A DNA stretch of 64,000 nucleotides from Candidatus Wolfebacteria bacterium (GTDB taxonomy: Bacteria > Patescibacteriota > Minisyncoccia > Phycocordibacterales > NVSU01): NCBI GenBank assembly GCA_002401345.1, contig NVSU01000001.1:68476-132475 (forward strand), read 5' to 3'. Below the pieces are notes generated by a model. That model worked only from the letters and a program-made list of their open reading frames with translations, was not told the DNA's origin and ran no database searches. The translations under genes and the position numbers were made by a program. This document shows positions 46,373-59,314 of this stretch, in pieces; the stretch's first letter is position 1, and each line of letters begins with the position of its first letter.

Positions 46373-48511
46373 CTACTTAAATGCATTACCAACCGATGCG
46401 CTCAATTGAGTGAAATTTACTTGAAGTCGAGCAACAAGCTGTGAGACAAATTCTATTACACCTGCCTTATCATTTCTATTATTTTTTTCTTTTTTATTAT
46501 TTTTTTTGCTTTCCCCTTCTCCATCAGCTTGCGTGTTCTGTTCTTTACCCTCTTCGTTGGAGCTTGGGCGAAGCGAGTCTGATTCGTCATTTTGTATAGT
46601 TTCTTCGAATTCTGAAGAGGATTCTTTTCCTTTTCTTTGTCTTTCTTCTTTCAAATCCTCAATGTTATTTTTAAAATCTTTCAAACTTTTTTTTGTTGTT
46701 CTTGCAAGATCACTCGCCTTTATATACTCCCCCTCGTCAATATTTGTTTGGATCTTATCAAGAAGTGTTATCAATGGCATAAGTATATCTGAAGGAAGTT
46801 CAATGCCCTCTTGAGTTGCCGTAGTAATTATTTCATCCTTTTCACCTTCAAGTTCTTGTAGAAGTTCTTCTGCTTCAGTTTTATGTTTTATATTTTCTTC
46901 TTTTATTTTCTCAATAGTTTGCTTAACATCCTCTAAGCTCTCTTGAGATTTTTGTGCTAAAATTTCTGATTCCTTATACTCTCCGTCTTCAAATGCAGAT
47001 TGAGCTTGCAAGAGAAGCGTGTCAGGTTCAGTATATAATTCCTGAGAAAAATCGACTCCTTCTTGTGTCGCGTCATTAATTATCTTACTTCTCTCTTTTT
47101 CTGATCGAATAATTTGTTCTTCAGACTTTTGCTTCTGTTTCTTCAATTCTTCTGTAATAGTAGAAACTTCATTAAAAGAGTGTTCTGTAAGTCTCGAAAG
47201 GATTTTTGCTGAGTCAAAATCTCCAACTTCAAATGCTGTGTGAGTTTGATTAAGTAAGGTAGTTGAATCGCTAAACACATCATCTGGAAGTTTTATATTA
47301 TTTTTATTTACTTCAGCAAGTATATCTGGCTTTCGTGTTTCTAATTTTTCAATCAACTCCCCTGCTTCTTTCTGTTCATCTACGATATCACCCACTAGCT
47401 CATCAATAGTTTTTTGAGCGCTCACAAGGTTCTCTTTTGCATTTTGTGCAAGTCGCTCAGCCTCTTCGAAATTCTCTGTATCAAAAAAAGATTGTGATCG
47501 TAATAATTCGTCACTGAATTCATCGAGAGTAAATAATGGAAGCTCGATTCCTTTTTTGTTGAACGTATCTACTAATTTTTGTTTTTCATCCCTTGCATCT
47601 TTAATAAGCTTTTGAGCTCTGTGCTCAACTTTCATTTCTTTGGCAATAAGATTTCTATTGCTCTTTAATACTTCTTTAATTTCCTCTATCTCTCTCTCAA
47701 TCTGATCTTCGAGAAGTATAATACTGGAAAGCTCCCTCTCGAGCTCTTCGTCGTCATCGGCTTGAAGTACCAGTGTGATCTGATCCTGAACGGAGCGTTT
47801 CTTATTTTTGAGTGACTGTTTCTCCTCTGTGAGGATTTGTGTAAATAATATCTCCGAGTCTTCAATGGTATCATTTAATTCCTTTGCAAGAGTAGTGACA
47901 TCCTCCCCTTTTTTCTTTTTAGTAGAGACAAGGTCAACCGCATTATTAAGGTTTTGCTTGAGAAATCTTTTTGCAAGTCCTATTTCCTTCTCTCTGTTTG
48001 CTGTACCTTTCTCATTGATAATTTTTTCAATTTCTTTAATTCTCTCACCTGCAAATTCAACTTCAAGTTTAGCCTTGGTCTCAGGACTCGCACTAAATAC
48101 AACTCTTGTTCTCTCACCTAGTATTTTAACGGGATGAAAAATATCTCCTGGTAAACTTTCTCGTGACGTCAACGCACTTCTCACAGGTGTATCAGTCACT
48201 GAAATGAGACCAACACCCAATGAAACTTGTTTGAGAATTTCCTGAGATGGCAAAAAGATTTCCGAAAAAGATGGAATATTCACTCTACCTTCGTTCTGAA
48301 TATTCTCAGTGGATGGAACAAGTCCTGTATGAAGTGGGACTTGATCAATAATTTGTTGAGGTGGTTGAAAAAGATCTGTAAAAAAATTAGCAGAAACAAG
48401 CTGGGGTGCAAAAAAGAATGCCCCCACAAGAAATAGCGGTATTAAAAACCCAGGAACAGAAGTAAATATATTAGATTTTTTCACGGGTAAAATAGTATTA
48501 TTCATATGCAT
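46373..48511 (-). CDS. Secreted, highly charged coiled-coil protein with 4-5 internal repeats of about 55 aa
   Basis: Signal peptide (..LVGAFFFAPQLVSA). Repeats of the form (I/V)(E/D)(L/F)(P/S)xx(I/L)...LLxxxQ(T/S)xF(E/D)xG(D/E)(F/Y)xx(A/S)xxLA... Confidence 0.45.
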   Translation of the reverse strand: MHMNNTILPVKKSNIFTSVPGFLIPLFLVGAFFFAPQLVSANFFTDLFQPPQQIIDQVPLHTGLVPSTENIQNEGRVNIPSFSEIFLPSQEILKQVSLGVGLISVTDTPVRSALTSRESLPGDIFHPVKILGERTRVVFSASPETKAKLEVEFAGERIKEIEKIINEKGTANREKEIGLAKRFLKQNLNNAVDLVSTKKKKGEDVTTLAKELNDTIEDSEILFTQILTEEKQSLKNKKRSVQDQITLVLQADDDEELERELSSIILLEDQIEREIEEIKEVLKSNRNLIAKEMKVEHRAQKLIKDARDEKQKLVDTFNKKGIELPLFTLDEFSDELLRSQSFFDTENFEEAERLAQNAKENLVSAQKTIDELVGDIVDEQKEAGELIEKLETRKPDILAEVNKNNIKLPDDVFSDSTTLLNQTHTAFEVGDFDSAKILSRLTEHSFNEVSTITEELKKQKQKSEEQIIRSEKERSKIINDATQEGVDFSQELYTEPDTLLLQAQSAFEDGEYKESEILAQKSQESLEDVKQTIEKIKEENIKHKTEAEELLQELEGEKDEIITTATQEGIELPSDILMPLITLLDKIQTNIDEGEYIKASDLARTTKKSLKDFKNNIEDLKEERQRKGKESSSEFEETIQNDESDSLRPSSNEEGKEQNTQADGEGESKKNNKKEKNNRNDKAGVIEFVSQLVARLQVNFTQLSASVGNAFK

Positions 48512-55268: not shown

Positions 55269-55386
55269 ATAATTGCGAATGTTAATAGTACCAACAAATG
55301 AGTACAATATGTTAGCTATGTATCACTTCCAGCGTCCAACCGTATACTCTCTAAATTATACATAAAATCTCCCATTTAGGGAGATT

Positions 55387-55983
55387 TTACTTTTTCTTTT
55401 TTCCGCCAGCTGGCGGATTTGCTTTCGTTTTCTTTTTGGTTTTAGTTTTGGTCTTGGTTTTTTTTACTTTCTTCTTTTTCACACTACTGCGCACAGGTTT
55501 TTTGGGTGCCAACTTCTTTTTTAATTTATTTCTTTGATCCTCTGCCACAATATAGCCCACACACTTATCTGTTCCACACCAACATGGATGATCTTCAAAA
55601 CACTCTAGGTCATATCCATAATCATATGAAAGCTCTTCATCTTTCTTAATATCTTTAATGGCATAAATCCAAATTTCTCCTTTTTCAACTTCAACTTCAC
55701 AATTTGGATCACATGAATGATTTATAAGTCGTGCAGTATTCTCGGGAACGTTTCCATCAATTTGATATCTCTTGTTAAGTTCAAATAAGTACACTGCTCC
55801 GCCCTCTTTATGATTCTTTGATTTCTCAAAGGATTCATCATATATATCGTCAGCCTCTTTGTTAGTTACCTTATTACCTATATATTGAATAATTTGAGTC
55901 TCATCTACAATGTCATACGCAGCAAAAAGTCCACGTTTGTGGATTTTTGATTGACTTCTTTTATAGAGTTTCTTAGGAGCCAT
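55387..55983 (-). CDS. SET-domain protein-lysine methyltransferase with a histone-H1-like Lys-rich C-terminal tail
   Basis: RLINHSCDPN, ELSYDYG, post-SET CWCGTDKC. The tail is KKKLAPKKPVRSSVKKKKVKKTKTKTKTKKKTKANPPAGGKKKK. Confidence 0.75.
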   Translation of the reverse strand: MAPKKLYKRSQSKIHKRGLFAAYDIVDETQIIQYIGNKVTNKEADDIYDESFEKSKNHKEGGAVYLFELNKRYQIDGNVPENTARLINHSCDPNCEVEVEKGEIWIYAIKDIKKDEELSYDYGYDLECFEDHPCWCGTDKCVGYIVAEDQRNKLKKKLAPKKPVRSSVKKKKVKKTKTKTKTKKKTKANPPAGGKKKK

Positions 55984-56000
55984 GTGTAATTAAAATATTA

Positions 56001-56582
56001 TTATTTTGATTCTGCTACTGAGTCATCATTCTTTTTCTCTGCGTCAGCAGACACATCCTCAGGTGTCTCTGTATTTTCTTCGGAAGTTTTTTCCTCTCCA
56101 CTATCTGGTGCATTCTCTTCTTTCTTCATTTCCTCTCCACCTTCAACTTTCTCTGTACTCGCCTCAGCTGATGTTTCCTCTGGTGCTGGTTCTGGGTCTG
56201 GTTCTGGTTCTGGGTCTGGAGCAATGAATCGTAATGCCTTCATCTTCCTTCGAATTTCTTTAGCTGCTTTTTCACGTATAAAATACAACTTTGATCGTCG
56301 AGTCTTTGCTCTCTTTATTATTTCTATTTTATCAATCAATACAGAATAAAGTGGAAAGATTTTCTCTACTCCAATACCTTTTGAAACCTTTCGAACAGTA
56401 ATAGTTGCTCCTGGCTCTCGTCCGTGCTTTCGTGCAAGCACAAGTCCTTCAAATGCCTGAAGTCGTGTTTTACCTTTTTCCTGAATTTTAGACCACACTC
56501 GAATAGTATCCCCTGATTTAATATCAAGTTTCCTTCTTTCTTCGATGTTTACTGGGCTAAATTTTATAGCTGTAGTTTGCAT
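56001..56582 (-). CDS. rplS: 50S ribosomal protein L19 with an about 75-aa acidic/Pro-Glu-rich C-terminal extension
   Basis: GDTIRVWSKIQEKGKTRLQAFEGLVLARKHG...TVRKVSKGIGVEKIFPLYS. The tail is PDPEPEPDPEPAPEETSAE... Confidence 0.85.
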   Translation of the reverse strand: MQTTAIKFSPVNIEERRKLDIKSGDTIRVWSKIQEKGKTRLQAFEGLVLARKHGREPGATITVRKVSKGIGVEKIFPLYSVLIDKIEIIKRAKTRRSKLYFIREKAAKEIRRKMKALRFIAPDPEPEPDPEPAPEETSAEASTEKVEGGEEMKKEENAPDSGEEKTSEENTETPEDVSADAEKKNDDSVAESK

Positions 56583-56603: not shown

Positions 56604-57347
56604 TTACTTTACTTTCGCAAGAAACTTGTTGAAATCATCAGGAAGAGGTGCCTCGACCGTAATTTTCTCTCCATTGAGCAATATAAACTCAATAGAATAG
56701 GCATGAAGCGCCAGTCGCGACATTCCGAGAATTGGACATGTCCGCTTGGGAGCATAGAGAGAATCACATACTACAGGATGATTAAGATATTTCATATGAA
56801 CCCTAATTTGATGGGTTCGCCCTGTTTTCGGTTTTACTTCAATATATGTAAATGTATCTACATTTACTTTGAAGCGATCAAGTACTTCATATAGTGTAAT
56901 CGCCTCTCGAGCCAGACCGCGTGCACCTCGTTGTGCCGACCACAAACGAAAATCGCTTTTACTTCGGGCAATCGGTTTATCAATCTCTCCTTCGTCATTT
57001 TTTATAGAACCCCATACTATAGTCCTGTATGTTTTTTGTACTGTTCTATTTTGAAATTGATCTTTAAGGTGAAAGAAGGATTTTTGATTCTTTGCAATTA
57101 AAAGTACTCCTGATGTATCTTTATCAAGTCTATGAACTATTCCTGGACGAGGCAACTCCACTTCCTCTTTTGTTTTTGAATCAATGATAGTCATTGGTTC
57201 TCCTACTTCTTTCATTTCTGAATATCTCTCTAATATCCAATCAACTAGTGTCGCATCTTTTGTGCGCCCATCAGAATGAACCATAAGTCCTACTGGCTTA
57301 TATATGGCTACTATATCATTGTCTTCGTATAAGATGTCTATATTCAT
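56604..57347 (-). CDS. RluA-family pseudouridine synthase
   Basis: HRLDKDTSGVLLIAKN catalytic-Asp motif. Confidence 0.85.
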   Translation of the reverse strand: MNIDILYEDNDIVAIYKPVGLMVHSDGRTKDATLVDWILERYSEMKEVGEPMTIIDSKTKEEVELPRPGIVHRLDKDTSGVLLIAKNQKSFFHLKDQFQNRTVQKTYRTIVWGSIKNDEGEIDKPIARSKSDFRLWSAQRGARGLAREAITLYEVLDRFKVNVDTFTYIEVKPKTGRTHQIRVHMKYLNHPVVCDSLYAPKRTCPILGMSRLALHAYSIEFILLNGEKITVEAPLPDDFNKFLAKVK

Positions 57348-57390: not shown

Positions 57391-57597
57391 CTAAGAGCGA
57401 GCTACCCAATATTTTTCTCCAGCAGTTTCATAAGTAAACATAAGTCTCCCTCCCTCCCTTTTCTCTGCCTCGACTGAGTCATATTTAACAAGTCGCATTC
57501 CTGATCCATCAGGGATCTCAATTACGTCTTTAGACCCCATCTGCTTCTGTATCTCATCAATGGCCTTCTTAAGTGTTGGTGATATCTTGAGTGTCAT
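57391..57597 (-). CDS. Small hypothetical protein (68 aa)
   Basis: ORF only. Confidence 0.3.
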   Translation of the reverse strand: MTLKISPTLKKAIDEIQKQMGSKDVIEIPDGSGMRLVKYDSVEAEKREGGRLMFTYETAGEKYWVARS

Positions 57598-57638: not shown

Positions 57639-58328
57639 CTACTTTTTATTTTTTGTCAAAAAATGTTTGACTGAATTCTTGAGCTCCATTAATTTCTCAA
57701 GATCATTGGGGCCATTTTCATATTGTTTGTCTTCTCGTATTTCATCAGTTAAATAATCACTTCTATATACAGAATTACCAAAATCAATTATCACCGGTCT
57801 TCCCGTTTTGTTATCAATCATAATATTTCTATCTGCCACGTCTCGATGATATATCCCAATGCGCTCACTGTGCATTGCATCAAAAAATTTCTCAAGTGCG
57901 GCAAAAAAGCTGTCGAAATTAAATGTATCTGGGAGCTCTTTTTTGCCAGTTAAAATTTCTTGAAAATCAGGACCATCAATTCTTTCCATGGATAAAATTT
58001 TTCTATATAGGGGAGGTTTATTCTTTTGCGGTATTTTTGCATCAAAGCTAAATGCTGGCTTAGGAACAATGACCTCATTACTTAGTTCTGTAAGTTTGGA
58101 TAAGAATTTCGCTTCCTCATGAACGTCATTAAGTGCATCTCGAACAATTACTTTGTGGGCCAAATTATTTTCTTTATCCTCATACACAAATGCAGATTGT
58201 CCAAATCCAATCTCAAATTCTTTTTTGATTATTTGTTCAGCGGACCTTTCTATTTGATCCAGCTCTTCCGGTGATATCTCTTTTTCTAGACCACTTTGAA
58301 ATTTTGTAATTCTAAATTTTTCGAACAT
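57639..58328 (-). CDS. Minimal eukaryotic-like protein kinase-fold protein (RD-kinase-like; RIO/Bud32/LPS-kinase size)
   Basis: Gly-loop GFGQSAFVY. Lys in LAHKVIV. Catalytic loop HRDVADRNIMID. DFG in IIDFGNS. Only 229 aa. Confidence 0.5.
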   Translation of the reverse strand: MFEKFRITKFQSGLEKEISPEELDQIERSAEQIIKKEFEIGFGQSAFVYEDKENNLAHKVIVRDALNDVHEEAKFLSKLTELSNEVIVPKPAFSFDAKIPQKNKPPLYRKILSMERIDGPDFQEILTGKKELPDTFNFDSFFAALEKFFDAMHSERIGIYHRDVADRNIMIDNKTGRPVIIDFGNSVYRSDYLTDEIREDKQYENGPNDLEKLMELKNSVKHFLTKNKK

Positions 58329-58567: not shown

Positions 58568-59314
58568 CTAGATTATTCCCCAAAAATGGTTTATGAAAAT
58601 GGCGCTTATAATATTGCCGAGTATAACAACTACTAACGCAACTACTCCATACCAAAAGAATTTGCTTGAAAAACTTTCTTTGGGGCTTAGAATCTTTCCT
58701 GCAGACCCACTGTTTTCACCAATGTTTCCATGGAAATTTTCTATACTACCAATATTAAACTTTGATTCTATATTTTGTGCTTTTTCTTTCTCTTCCAGAG
58801 TGAATTCCGCCCCCTCTCCTTGAACATCTTGTTTTTCTAATTTTATAGCCCAATCTAGAAGATTGTTTCTGACTACATTCAATATTCCAACAAGAGCTGA
58901 TCTATCAATAAATAATGAAACTTTTGTTTTGACAGGTGAGTCTTTTAATATTTCATTTGCTGATGAAGCAGAGTATGGCATTTCATAACTATCTGACTTA
59001 TTAGAAATAAGCTCCTCAATCTCACTAATAGACTGATTAGCTCGTCTAGATGATATTGTTCTTTCTATGTCAGATTTTTTAAAAAGCACTGGAACCCACC
59101 CCTGGTAAGGATTCCATGCTTTGACCTGACCTGGCATATTTCTATAATCTGGATATGCACTACTGTCCTTATAGCCATTAAGTTCCAATTCAATCCAACT
59201 GAGAAAATCCACTTGATCTAATTTACTCGCCAAAACTTTAACCTCCATAAGTAAACTAGAAACGGAGAGACTATGGTCTTGGATTTTTTTAATGAATTCT
59301 TGAACTTTTGTCAT
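58568..59314 (-). CDS. Membrane-anchored hypothetical protein with an N-terminal domain reminiscent of abortive-infection AbiTii-type proteins
   Basis: LLMEVKVLASKLDQVDFLSWIELELNGY resembles my recollection of the AbiTii N-terminal helix. C-terminal TM. Low-confidence family call. Confidence 0.3.
   Translation of the reverse strand: MTKVQEFIKKIQDHSLSVSSLLMEVKVLASKLDQVDFLSWIELELNGYKDSSAYPDYRNMPGQVKAWNPYQGWVPVLFKKSDIERTISSRRANQSISEIEELISNKSDSYEMPYSASSANEILKDSPVKTKVSLFIDRSALVGILNVVRNNLLDWAIKLEKQDVQGEGAEFTLEEKEKAQNIESKFNIGSIENFHGNIGENSGSAGKILSPKESFSSKFFWYGVVALVVVILGNIISAIFINHFWGII

What the first reader, a model, noticed from the sequence alone, without database searches (positions are those of the whole stretch)
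55387..56582. Bacterial SET-domain lysine methyltransferase carrying a histone-H1-like poly-Lys tail, adjacent to an L19 with a long acidic Pro/Glu tail
The SET protein has all canonical motifs (NHSCDPN, ELSYDY, post-SET CxCx4C) plus a 45-aa KKK/TK-repeat tail. Such tails are typical of nucleoid or histone-like proteins such as chlamydial Hc1. In Chlamydia a SET protein methylates Hc1-type proteins. Here catalytic and basic-tail modules are fused. The co-directional neighbour rplS encodes L19 with an unusual ~75-aa acidic extension (PDPEPEPDPEPAPEE...), which is opposite in charge. This suggests a possible electrostatic interaction or substrate relationship, such as ribosomal or nucleoid protein methylation.
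Basis: partly seen in the sequence, partly recalled or inferred. Interest (0 to 1): 0.55.

Follow-up and report, generated by a model that had tools for sequence, protein, structure and literature searches.

The report
Small bacterial SET methyltransferase, poly-lysine tail
This is a real but fairly ordinary member of a widespread family of small prokaryotic SET-domain lysine methyltransferases that nearly all carry a basic C-terminal extension, and its position next to an acid-tailed ribosomal protein L19 looks like local gene order rather than a functional partnership.

Summary
A 198-aa SET-domain protein (55387-55983, minus strand) has all catalytic motifs, a CxCx4C post-SET motif and a 48-aa tail with 23 Lys. 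It lies 17 nt downstream of an rplS gene whose L19 carries a 78-aa acidic extension. The organism is a Candidatus Wolfebacteria bacterium (Patescibacteria/CPR).

The proposed link between the two tails is not supported.
- A basic stretch after post-SET is a family trait. It occurs in 120/120 nearest homologs and in most of about 170 more distant loci, spanning CPR, DPANN archaea, Verrucomicrobiota, Omnitrophota and SAR11. The window's clade is simply the most extreme (+19 to +23).
- An acidic L19 tail is a Patescibacteria-wide trait (120/120 nearest L19s). Three long-tailed L19 genes examined elsewhere had no SET neighbour.
- rplS lies next to SET only in the two closest relatives (70-78% identity). 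It is absent from 178 other scanned loci and from the ten further contigs looked up individually.
- Archaeal family members have no bL19 at all.

Best model: an active stand-alone lysine methyltransferase with a KMT2/SET1-like core. Its basic post-SET extension probably tethers it to nucleic acid, as in NSD enzymes, and may be automethylated, as in chlamydial NUE. The substrate is unknown. I rate it a new member of a known kind, of low to moderate interest.

The parts
55387..55983 (-). SET-domain protein-lysine methyltransferase gene (198 aa plus stop)
   Evidence: ORF. Pfam SET 82.9 bits. It is identical to an NCBI 'SET domain-containing protein-lysine N-methyltransferase [Candidatus Wolfebacteria bacterium]' record (P0001).
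55615..55935 (-). SET catalytic core (residues 17-123), with NHSCDPN at 88-94 and ELSYDY at 117-122
   Evidence: Pfam envelope, motif positions and invariant columns. The AF2 model has pLDDT of mostly 88-97 here, and Foldseek matches MLL1/MLL3/MLL4.
55561..55584 (-). Post-SET zinc motif CWCGTDKC (residues 134-141)
   Evidence: C134, C136 and C141 are invariant in 30 sequences, and the CxCx4C motif is present in 120/120 homologs.
55510..55542 (-). Conserved basic helix directly after post-SET (residues 148-158, EDQRNKLKKKL). This is the family-wide 'WPKLKRKL'-type segment.
   Evidence: Predicted as helix H148-158 by AF2, with block pLDDT of about 69-80. The segment is conserved in the family alignment and consensus.
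55390..55509 (-). Disordered poly-Lys / Thr-Lys low-complexity tail (residues 159-198)
   Evidence: pLDDT 55-57 with no secondary structure. 17 K/R in the best 30-residue window. A period-6/12 DNA tandem repeat lies at 55423-55461. The four clade members have comparable tails of 40-57 aa and net +19 to +23, with only the proximal part alignable.
55362..55390 (-). Terminator-like hairpin just after (and overlapping) the SET stop codon
   Evidence: 12-bp stem, loop of 5, followed by a T-rich run; sequence shown.
55984..56000 (-). 17-nt rplS-SET intergenic spacer without a hairpin
   Evidence: The relatives L081 and L083 instead have 27- and 57-nt spacers containing terminator-like hairpins.
56238..56582 (-). 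rplS, globular bL19 domain (residues 1-115)
   Evidence: Pfam Ribosomal_L19 106.5 bits; TIGR01024 98.9 bits against a 90.7 cut-off.
56001..56237 (-). rplS, acidic Pro/Glu-rich C-terminal extension (residues 116-193 plus stop)
   Evidence: 78 aa with 27 D/E, 8 K/R and 9 P. A period-6/18 DNA repeat lies at 56179-56219. An acidic extension is present in 120/120 nearest Patescibacteria L19s.
56604..57347 (-). RluA/RluD-family pseudouridine synthase. It is the conserved upstream partner of rplS in Patescibacteria (context, not part of the SET unit).
   Evidence: TIGR00005 213 bits. The same PseudoU_synth_2-rplS pair occurs in L085, L087/L088 and L089 without SET.

Best explanation
The gene encodes an active, stand-alone SET-domain protein-lysine methyltransferase. 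It has a KMT2/SET1-like catalytic core followed by a zinc post-SET motif.

It belongs to a large prokaryotic family found in CPR bacteria, DPANN archaea, Verrucomicrobiota, Omnitrophota, SAR11 and others. Members almost always continue past post-SET into a short basic helix and a variable Lys/Arg-rich disordered tail. In this Wolfebacteria lineage the tail has grown to about 48 residues (net +23 measured from post-SET) through low-complexity, slippage-type expansion.

The most likely role of the extension (inferred, not shown) is a polyanion tether that concentrates the small enzyme on DNA or RNA. There it would methylate lysines of abundant nucleic-acid-bound proteins, such as nucleoid-associated or possibly ribosomal proteins. 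This is how the basic post-SET extension of NSD enzymes is thought to work. The tail lysines may also be automethylated and tune activity, as shown for the C-terminal KK of chlamydial NUE.

The position downstream of rplS is lineage-specific gene order. The ancestral unit is rluD-rplS, and the acidic L19 tail is an independent, phylum-wide Patescibacteria trait.
For: Shown:
- SET identity and an intact active site.
- A confident AF2 SET fold, then helix 148-158, then a low-confidence coil.
- A basic post-SET stretch in 120/120 nearest homologs, median 26.5 aa and net +7. It is also present in most named genomes across phyla and in 71 further loci, median net +4.
- Long K-rich tails recur sporadically in unrelated clades: Verrucomicrobiota L013, L020, L029 and L032; Omnitrophota L017; Woesearchaeota P0058; also P0048 and P0076 (taxon not named).
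- The tail is partly a DNA tandem repeat.
- The gene's composition matches its host, so it is not a recent import.
- The L19 acidic tail is general in Patescibacteria, and the rluD-rplS pair is conserved without SET.

Precedents from papers:
- The basic post-SET extension of NSD2 is required for nucleosome methylation and is expected to contact DNA phosphates (PMC8593083).
- NUE automethylates K209/K210 in its C-terminal KHRKKR patch, and removing that patch lowers activity (PMC2904774).
- Archaeal Go1-SET methylates the DNA-binding protein MC1-alpha, and cpnSET binds and methylates Hc1 (PMC3980110).
Against: - No substrate, nucleic-acid binding or activity was tested or is testable here.
- No conserved gene neighbour points to a substrate across the family.
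- Clade-local neighbours point in different directions: exonuclease III (DNA) and SpoU (RNA) in Verrucomicrobiota, and rplS/rluD (ribosome) in this lineage.
- Some Akkermansiaceae members have near-neutral extensions, so a strong positive charge is not obligatory.
- The window contains no HU or histone-like gene.
- Homology of the extension to NUE's basic patch could not be checked, because the NUE sequence was not retrievable with these tools.
Confidence: 0.6

Rival explanations
1. One reading: the poly-Lys tail of SET docks electrostatically on the acidic tail of the neighbouring L19. This would make SET a ribosome-associated enzyme that methylates L19 or other ribosomal proteins.
For: - The genes are co-directional, 17 nt apart, with no hairpin between them in the window.
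- The rplS-SET pair is kept in the two closest relatives even though the upstream flank differs.
- An rRNA pseudouridine synthase lies upstream.
- The clade with this adjacency also has the most highly charged SET tails in the family.
- A SET-SpoU RNA-methylase fusion exists elsewhere (P0103).
- From my own knowledge: eukaryotic SET enzymes Rkm1-4 methylate ribosomal proteins.
Against: - rplS is near SET in 0/80 named genomes and 0/98 further loci.
- It is not beside three other long-tailed SETs, nor beside clade member L084.
- Acidic L19 tails are phylum-wide (120/120) and occur without a SET neighbour (3/3).
- In L081 and L083 a terminator-like hairpin separates rplS from SET.
- Close homologs with K-rich tails live in DPANN archaea, which lack bL19.
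- The SpoU link is confined to one Verrucomicrobiota neighbourhood.
Confidence: 0.08
2. The Lys-rich tail is mainly an intramolecular substrate or regulator: an automethylation site or pseudo-substrate that switches enzyme activity, rather than a nucleic-acid tether.
For: - NUE automethylates K209/K210 in its C-terminal basic patch, and mutants lose activity toward histones (PMC2904774).
- The tail is disordered and long enough to reach the active site.
- Lys is strongly preferred over Arg in this tail (23 K against 2 R).
Against: - Many family members use Arg-rich versions, such as 'RWRIRKKL' and 'RRRLKKR'. Arg cannot be a SET substrate, which suggests that charge rather than methylatable lysine is what is conserved.
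- The K preference here may simply reflect the genome's 35% GC.
- This model does not exclude the tether model.
Confidence: 0.15
3. The long poly-K part is a functionally neutral low-complexity expansion in an AT-rich genome. Only the short conserved basic helix matters.
For: - The tail is partly a period-6/12 DNA repeat.
- Its length and sequence vary freely among relatives, and only the first 15 or so residues align.
- AAA/AAG-rich tracts are favoured at 35% GC.
- Most family members manage with tails of about 25 aa.
Against: - All four clade members retain tails of 40-57 aa with net +19 to +23 despite 61-78% identity in the core.
- No acidic residues have accumulated in residues 151-198.
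- Similar long K-rich tails evolved repeatedly in other phyla.
- Such stretches are rare in this window: 3 of 73 ORFs.
Confidence: 0.12
4. A secreted effector of an episymbiotic CPR cell that methylates host chromatin or nucleoid proteins, by analogy with NUE, RomA/LegAS4 and BaSET.
For: - Characterised bacterial SET proteins are mostly host-directed effectors (PMC3980110).
- In NUE the C-terminal basic patch contributes to nuclear accumulation (PMC2904774).
- From my own knowledge: CPR and DPANN organisms are often episymbionts.
Against: - The protein begins about 10 residues before the SET core and has no N-terminal extension that could act as a signal.
- The same family is present in free-living SAR11 and Verrucomicrobiota.
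- No secretion genes lie nearby.
- The NCBIfam T4SS effector model AnkI/LegAS4 scores only 26.8 bits against a 550 cut-off.
Confidence: 0.05

Closest known systems
Chlamydial SET proteins NUE (C. trachomatis CT737) and cpnSET (C. pneumoniae)
   Same: - Small stand-alone bacterial SET proteins with a basic patch at the extreme C-terminus.
- In NUE that patch (KHRKKR, K209/K210) is automethylated and is needed for full activity.
- cpnSET was reported to bind and methylate the Lys-rich nucleoid proteins Hc1 and Hc2 (PMC2904774, PMC3980110).
   Different: - NUE is a type III-secreted effector that acts on host histones, and it did not methylate Hc1.
- The window protein has no N-terminal secretion region, and its tail is about 48 aa rather than 6.
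- Sequence-level orthology could not be tested here.
Methanosarcina mazei Go1-SET
   Same: A minimal archaeal SET enzyme acting on an endogenous DNA-binding chromatin protein, MC1-alpha (PMC3980110). The window's family includes many archaeal members, among them MAGs labelled Methanosarcinales at 64% identity.
   Different: I could not retrieve the Go1-SET sequence, so family membership and the presence of a basic extension are untested. CPR bacteria are not known to have MC1.
Eukaryotic KMT2/SET1 (MLL1-4, yeast Set1) SET domains
   Same: The best sequence and structure matches: E about 1e-20, 34-38% identity, with the same SET plus CxCx4C post-SET layout and a Tyr at the F/Y-switch position (Y120).
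   Different: - KMT2 proteins end a few residues after post-SET and need the WRAD/COMPASS partners and N-SET/WIN elements.
- The window protein is only the core plus a basic tail.
- It shares the catalytic fold but is not a KMT2 family member.
NSD1/2/3 'basic post-SET extension'
   Same: A Lys/Arg-rich disordered stretch directly after post-SET. It is required for activity on DNA-wrapped substrate and is thought to bind DNA phosphates (PMC8593083). The HMMER alignment to NSD2 runs into the query tail, covering residues 18-184.
   Different: NSD proteins are large multidomain eukaryotic enzymes with an AWS domain and an autoinhibitory loop. The similarity in the extension is compositional and positional, and homology has not been demonstrated.
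Histone H1-like bacterial nucleoid proteins (Hc1, Hc2, AlgP-type AKKA/KK repeats)
   Same: Lys-rich, low-complexity, disordered composition. Family member P0076 has a 127-aa AKKA/PKK-type tail.
   Different: No detectable homology: there are no Pfam hits for any tail. Here the basic region is an appendage of an enzyme, not a stand-alone architectural protein.

Membership tests
SET-domain protein lysine methyltransferases (Pfam PF00856) | Match to the SET profile above the curated threshold | tested here: met
   82.9 bits against a cut-off of 22.4, covering profile positions 2-105 of 105.
SET-domain protein lysine methyltransferases (Pfam PF00856) | NHxCxPN and ELxF/YDY active-site motifs, including the catalytic Tyr | tested here: met
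   NHSCDPN at 88-94 and ELSYDY at 117-122. N88, H89, C91, P93, E117 and Y122 are invariant in 30 homologs.
SET-domain protein lysine methyltransferases (Pfam PF00856) | SET beta-fold resembling solved SET structures | tested here: met
   In the AF2 model the core pLDDT is mostly 88-97. Foldseek probability is 1.0 to MLL1/MLL3/MLL4/SET1, with TM (target-normalised) of 0.57-0.71. This is a predicted structure, not an experimental one.
SET-domain protein lysine methyltransferases (Pfam PF00856) | SAM-dependent lysine methyltransferase activity | not testable with these tools
   This needs a biochemical assay.
Post-SET-containing SET enzymes | A CxCx4C cluster that, with the Cys of NHxC, forms the zinc site | tested here: met
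   CWCGTDKC at 134-141 plus C91. The motif is present in 120/120 homologs.
KMT2/SET1 (COMPASS) H3K4 methyltransferases | N-SET/WIN elements and multidomain context for WRAD complex assembly | tested here: not met
   The protein starts about 10 residues before the SET core and has no other domain. It therefore has a KMT2-like core only and is not a family member.
Chlamydial NUE/cpnSET-type bacterial SET proteins | Small stand-alone SET protein with a C-terminal basic Lys patch | tested here: met
   198 aa with a basic helix and a poly-K tail. The NUE patch is described in PMC2904774.
Chlamydial NUE/cpnSET-type bacterial SET proteins | Sequence orthology to CT737/cpnSET, and a type III secretion signal | not tested
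   The NUE and cpnSET sequences were not obtainable with the available tools. No N-terminal extension is present in the window protein.
Histone H1-like / Hc1 nucleoid proteins | Detectable homology to the Hc1, HC2 or linker-histone families | tested here: not met
   The window tail and three other family tails gave no such Pfam hit at E up to 1.
NSD-type basic post-SET extension (functional analogy) | A Lys/Arg-rich disordered segment immediately after post-SET | tested here: met
   Residues 148-198. This is conserved across the family.
NSD-type basic post-SET extension (functional analogy) | The extension binds DNA and is required for activity on DNA-bound substrate | not testable with these tools
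   This needs EMSA and activity assays with and without the tail.
Bacterial ribosomal protein bL19 (the neighbouring gene) | Match to the equivalog model above threshold | tested here: met
   TIGR01024 98.9 bits against a 90.7 cut-off; Pfam 106.5 bits.

The most novel reading that the evidence does not exclude
In this Wolfebacteria lineage the SET enzyme has been recruited to the ribosome. Its unusually long poly-Lys tail would dock on the acidic C-terminal extension of bL19 (or on nearby rRNA). From there the enzyme would methylate lysines of L19 or neighbouring ribosomal proteins, giving a CPR-specific, genetically linked writer-substrate module on an already unusual ribosome.
Probability: 0.06. 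Interest if true: 0.6.

Novelty: new member of a known kind. Interest (0 to 1): 0.25.

Why it matters
Prokaryotic SET-domain proteins are known, but they have mostly been studied as host-directed effectors. Their endogenous substrates remain largely unknown.

The useful outcome here is at the family level. A basic extension directly after post-SET appears to be the normal architecture of a widespread small SET family. That family spans CPR bacteria, DPANN archaea, Verrucomicrobiota and SAR11, and members are 55-64% identical across the two domains.

This reframes NUE's C-terminal 'NLS'/automethylation patch as a likely ancestral feature rather than a host-targeting adaptation. It also suggests a testable tether mechanism that parallels NSD enzymes.

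Separately, the phylum-wide acidic extension of bL19 in Patescibacteria is a small, apparently undescribed ribosomal peculiarity. Neither point changes current understanding in a major way.

Tried and rejected
1. Conserved-neighbour search over 84 loci by all-against-all clustering. No family recurred in more than 10 loci, and those reflected clade-internal synteny.

2. Exonuclease III next to SET looked promising at first (3/3 look-ups). It proved confined to Verrucomicrobiota/Opitutales: 9 of 95 loci. The SET-SpoU fusion (P0103) comes from that same neighbourhood type, so it is not independent evidence for an RNA link.

3. Phage or viral vector idea. There was no hit in 50,697 phage records and only 21 weak loci (most 43-50% identical) among 2.9 million IMG/VR contigs.

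4. Recent horizontal transfer into this genome. Rejected, because GC and GC3 match the neighbouring genes.

5. Metagenome scan for more members of the window's clade. It returned nothing above 65% identity, so the depth of the rplS-SET adjacency rests on only four clade loci.

6. Literature searches for SET domains in CPR/DPANN and for bL19 extensions in Patescibacteria found nothing specific.

7. Pfam scan of the tails for Hc1 or H1 homology found nothing.

8. I could not retrieve the NUE, cpnSET or Go1-SET sequences, so I could not test orthology or align the C-terminal patches.
Full report
**What is there**

On the minus strand, 55387-55983 encodes a 198-aa protein and 56001-56582 encodes a 193-aa protein.

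The first protein is a SET-domain protein:
- Pfam SET scores 82.9 bits against a cut-off of 22.4, covering residues 17-123.
- NHSCDPN is at 88-94, ELSYDY at 117-122, and the post-SET motif CWCGTDKC at 134-141.
- Residues 151-198 hold 23 Lys, 2 Arg and no acidic residue.

The second protein is ribosomal protein bL19:
- Pfam scores 106.5 bits, and TIGR01024 scores 98.9 bits against a 90.7 cut-off.
- It carries a 78-aa C-terminal extension with 27 D/E, 8 K/R and 9 Pro.

The genes are co-directional and 17 nt apart, with no hairpin between them. A terminator-like hairpin follows SET at 55362-55390. Upstream on the same strand lies an RluA/RluD-family pseudouridine synthase (TIGR00005, 213 bits).

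The SET protein is identical to an NCBI record from a Candidatus Wolfebacteria bacterium, which is a member of the Patescibacteria/CPR.

**Is the SET domain intact?**

Yes. The closest solved structures by sequence are KMT2D, KMT2C, yeast SET1 and MLL1, at E about 1e-20. An AlphaFold2 model built on a 30-sequence alignment has mean pLDDT 79, with most of the core at 88-97. Its best Foldseek matches are the same MLL/SET1 domains, at probability 1.0 and 34-38% identity.

In the family alignment H15, G18, Y65, N88, H89, C91, P93, E117, Y122, C134, C136 and C141 are invariant. The model then shows a short helix at 148-158 and a low-confidence coil (pLDDT 55-57) out to residue 198.

**The basic tail is a family trait**

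The large protein collection holds 3116 homologs at E below 1e-5. The 120 best are 54-78% identical and mostly 150-205 aa long.
- All 120 have the CxCx4C motif.
- All 120 continue into a basic segment with a recognisable consensus, roughly GYIV-x-E-[DE]-x-W-P-K-L-K-[KR]-x-L-A-K-K-K.
- The median post-Cys tail is 26.5 aa with net charge +7. The window's is 57 aa and +23.

A scan of one genome per species found at least 590 loci. The best 80 come from Verrucomicrobiota (including Akkermansia and Haloferula), Opitutales, Omnitrophota, SAR11/Pelagibacteraceae/HIMB59, Woesearchaeota, Pacearchaeota and MAGs labelled Methanosarcinales.

The basic segment is present in nearly all of them, although a few Akkermansiaceae are close to neutral. 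In 71 further metagenome and viral loci the median tail is 25 aa with net +4, and none reaches +12.

Long K-rich tails appear sporadically in unrelated clades:
- Verrucomicrobiota L013, L020, L029 and L032.
- Omnitrophota L017.
- Woesearchaeota P0058, plus P0048 (taxon not named).
- P0076, with a 127-aa AKKA/PKK-type tail.

The window's own clade (the window, L081/L082, L083 and L084, at 61-78% identity) uniformly keeps tails of 40-57 aa with net +19 to +23.

Equally, the 'fusion' is not special: it is the standard architecture, here at its extreme. The distal part is partly a period-6/12 DNA tandem repeat, which is consistent with growth by slippage. The tails match no Pfam family, so the resemblance to H1 or Hc1 is compositional rather than homologous.

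**The L19 acidic tail is a phylum trait**

All 120 nearest L19 homologs are 129-208 aa, against roughly 115 aa for a typical bacterial L19 (my own knowledge). Every one that carries a source name is from Patescibacteria.

Every one of the 120 has an acidic extension after the globular domain. The median length is 43.5 aa, the median net charge is -10, and none is net positive. The sequence is not conserved beyond its composition.

**Are the two linked?**

Evidence for a link:
- The two closest SET relatives (P0003 at 70% and P0002 at 78% identity) also have a long acidic-tailed L19 (193 and 179 aa) directly upstream.
- In L081 the upstream flank differs from the window's, so the pair has stayed together through at least one rearrangement.

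Evidence against a link:
- In both relatives a terminator-like hairpin lies between rplS and SET.
- The fourth clade member, L084, has an unrelated 73-aa ORF upstream.
- rplS is within 4 kb of SET in 0/80 named genomes and within 3 kb in 0/98 metagenome and viral loci.
- Three other long-tailed SETs (P0048, P0076, P0009) have no rplS neighbour, and neither do P0064, P0014 or P0026.
- Three long acidic-tailed L19 genes from other Patescibacteria have the same upstream pseudouridine synthase as the window but no SET downstream. This makes rluD-rplS the conserved pair and SET a lineage-specific addition.
- Highly similar SET proteins with K-rich tails are found in DPANN archaea (for example P0058, named Woesearchaeota). 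bL19 is a bacteria-specific ribosomal protein (established nomenclature).

Both tails are therefore independently explained, and the adjacency has only shallow phylogenetic depth. An interaction is not excluded, but nothing beyond proximity supports it.

**Other context clues**

An all-against-all neighbour clustering found no partner conserved across the family.

In Verrucomicrobiota/Opitutales, SET often sits beside an exodeoxyribonuclease III gene (9 of 95 loci). A SpoU RNA methylase lies nearby in that clade, and one homolog (P0103) is a SET-SpoU fusion. These arrangements are clade-local and point in different directions (DNA and RNA).

The SET gene's GC (0.343) and GC3 (0.276) match its neighbours, so it is not a recent import. 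Even so, 55-64% identity between bacterial and archaeal members implies old horizontal spread. Phage records lack the family, and only 21 IMG/VR contigs carry relatives.

**How it most likely works**

Shown:
- An intact SET/post-SET catalytic unit.
- A conserved basic helix.
- A disordered polycationic tail.

Inferred:
- The extension anchors the small enzyme on a polyanion (DNA or RNA), so that it acts on abundant nucleic-acid-bound proteins.

Two published precedents make this the best-supported model.
- The 'basic post-SET extension' of NSD enzymes is required for nucleosome methylation and is expected to contact DNA phosphates (PMC8593083, citing Allali-Hassani 2014).
- In chlamydial NUE the C-terminal KHRKKR patch contains the automethylated K209/K210, and its removal lowers activity (PMC2904774).

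Known endogenous substrates of prokaryotic SET enzymes are DNA-binding chromatin proteins: MC1-alpha for Go1-SET and, more contentiously, Hc1 for cpnSET (PMC3980110).

Many family members use Arg-rich versions of the segment. This suggests that charge, rather than methylatable lysine, is the conserved property, which favours tethering over pure autoregulation.

By analogy with the MLL1 F/Y switch (my own knowledge), Tyr120 would predict mono- or di-methylation rather than tri-methylation. The substrate remains unknown.

**Comparison and novelty**

The protein is a member of the SET-domain methyltransferase superfamily. All sequence and fold criteria are met; activity is untested.
- Its catalytic core is most like KMT2/SET1, but it lacks every accessory element of that family and is not a member.
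- It works most like the small bacterial and archaeal SET proteins (NUE/cpnSET, Go1-SET), although I could not test orthology.
- Its tail is analogous to the NSD basic extension.

It is already annotated in NCBI as a SET-domain protein-lysine N-methyltransferase. I rate it a new member of a known kind, with interest 0.25.

The modest new points are the family-wide basic post-SET extension and the phylum-wide acidic bL19 extension. Neither turned up in my literature searches.

Noticed in passing
window 56001-56237; P0121-P0240: An acidic, Glu/Pro/Lys-rich C-terminal extension of bL19 (15-92 aa, median 43.5, median net charge -10) is present in all 120 nearest L19 homologs; every one that carries a source name is from Patescibacteria. 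I found no description of it in the searched literature.
   Followed up: partly
window 56604-57347 with 56001-56582; L085, L087, L088, L089: An RluA/RluD-type pseudouridine synthase (247 aa) immediately upstream of rplS is a conserved gene pair in several Patescibacteria. This differs from the classical rpsP-rimM-trmD-rplS arrangement (which I cite from my own knowledge).
   Followed up: partly
L005, L010, L034, L044, L059, L090-L093: In Verrucomicrobiota/Opitutales the SET gene lies next to an exodeoxyribonuclease III (Exo_endo_phos) gene, on either side. A SpoU RNA methylase is nearby in L018 and L090.
   Followed up: partly
P0103 (345 aa): A natural fusion of this SET family with a SpoU-type RNA 2'-O-methylase domain (Pfam SET 87 bits plus SpoU_methylase 117 bits).
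   Followed up: partly
window 58568-59314 (-): An AbiTii-family (abortive-infection-type) protein (Pfam 147 bits), just upstream of two tRNA genes (Val, Arg).
   Followed up: no
window 57639-58328 (-) and 57391-57597 (-): A minimal 229-aa protein-kinase-like / Bud32-like ORF (Pkinase 35 bits, weak) is followed by a 68-aa ORF with no family match. Both lie directly upstream of the rluD-rplS-SET run.
   Followed up: no
L095-L115 (IMG/VR contigs): About 20 contigs classified as viral encode relatives of the SET protein at 43-50% identity. Whether these are real viruses or host fragments was not checked.
   Followed up: no
L010 (Opitutaceae), SET ORF of 416 aa: In this locus the SET reading frame continues for about 218 residues past post-SET into what looks like an additional globular domain. 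It could be a fusion or a missed stop or frameshift.
   Followed up: no
window 46373-48511 (-): A 712-aa ORF with net charge -44 and a strongly acidic stretch (14 D/E in 30 residues). It is the only other ORF in the window with an extreme charge cluster.
   Followed up: no
window about 22400-46200: A long minus-strand run of ORFs that looks like a glycosyltransferase / cell-envelope polysaccharide cluster. This is judged from the ORF list and N-terminal sequences only, with no family search.
   Followed up: no
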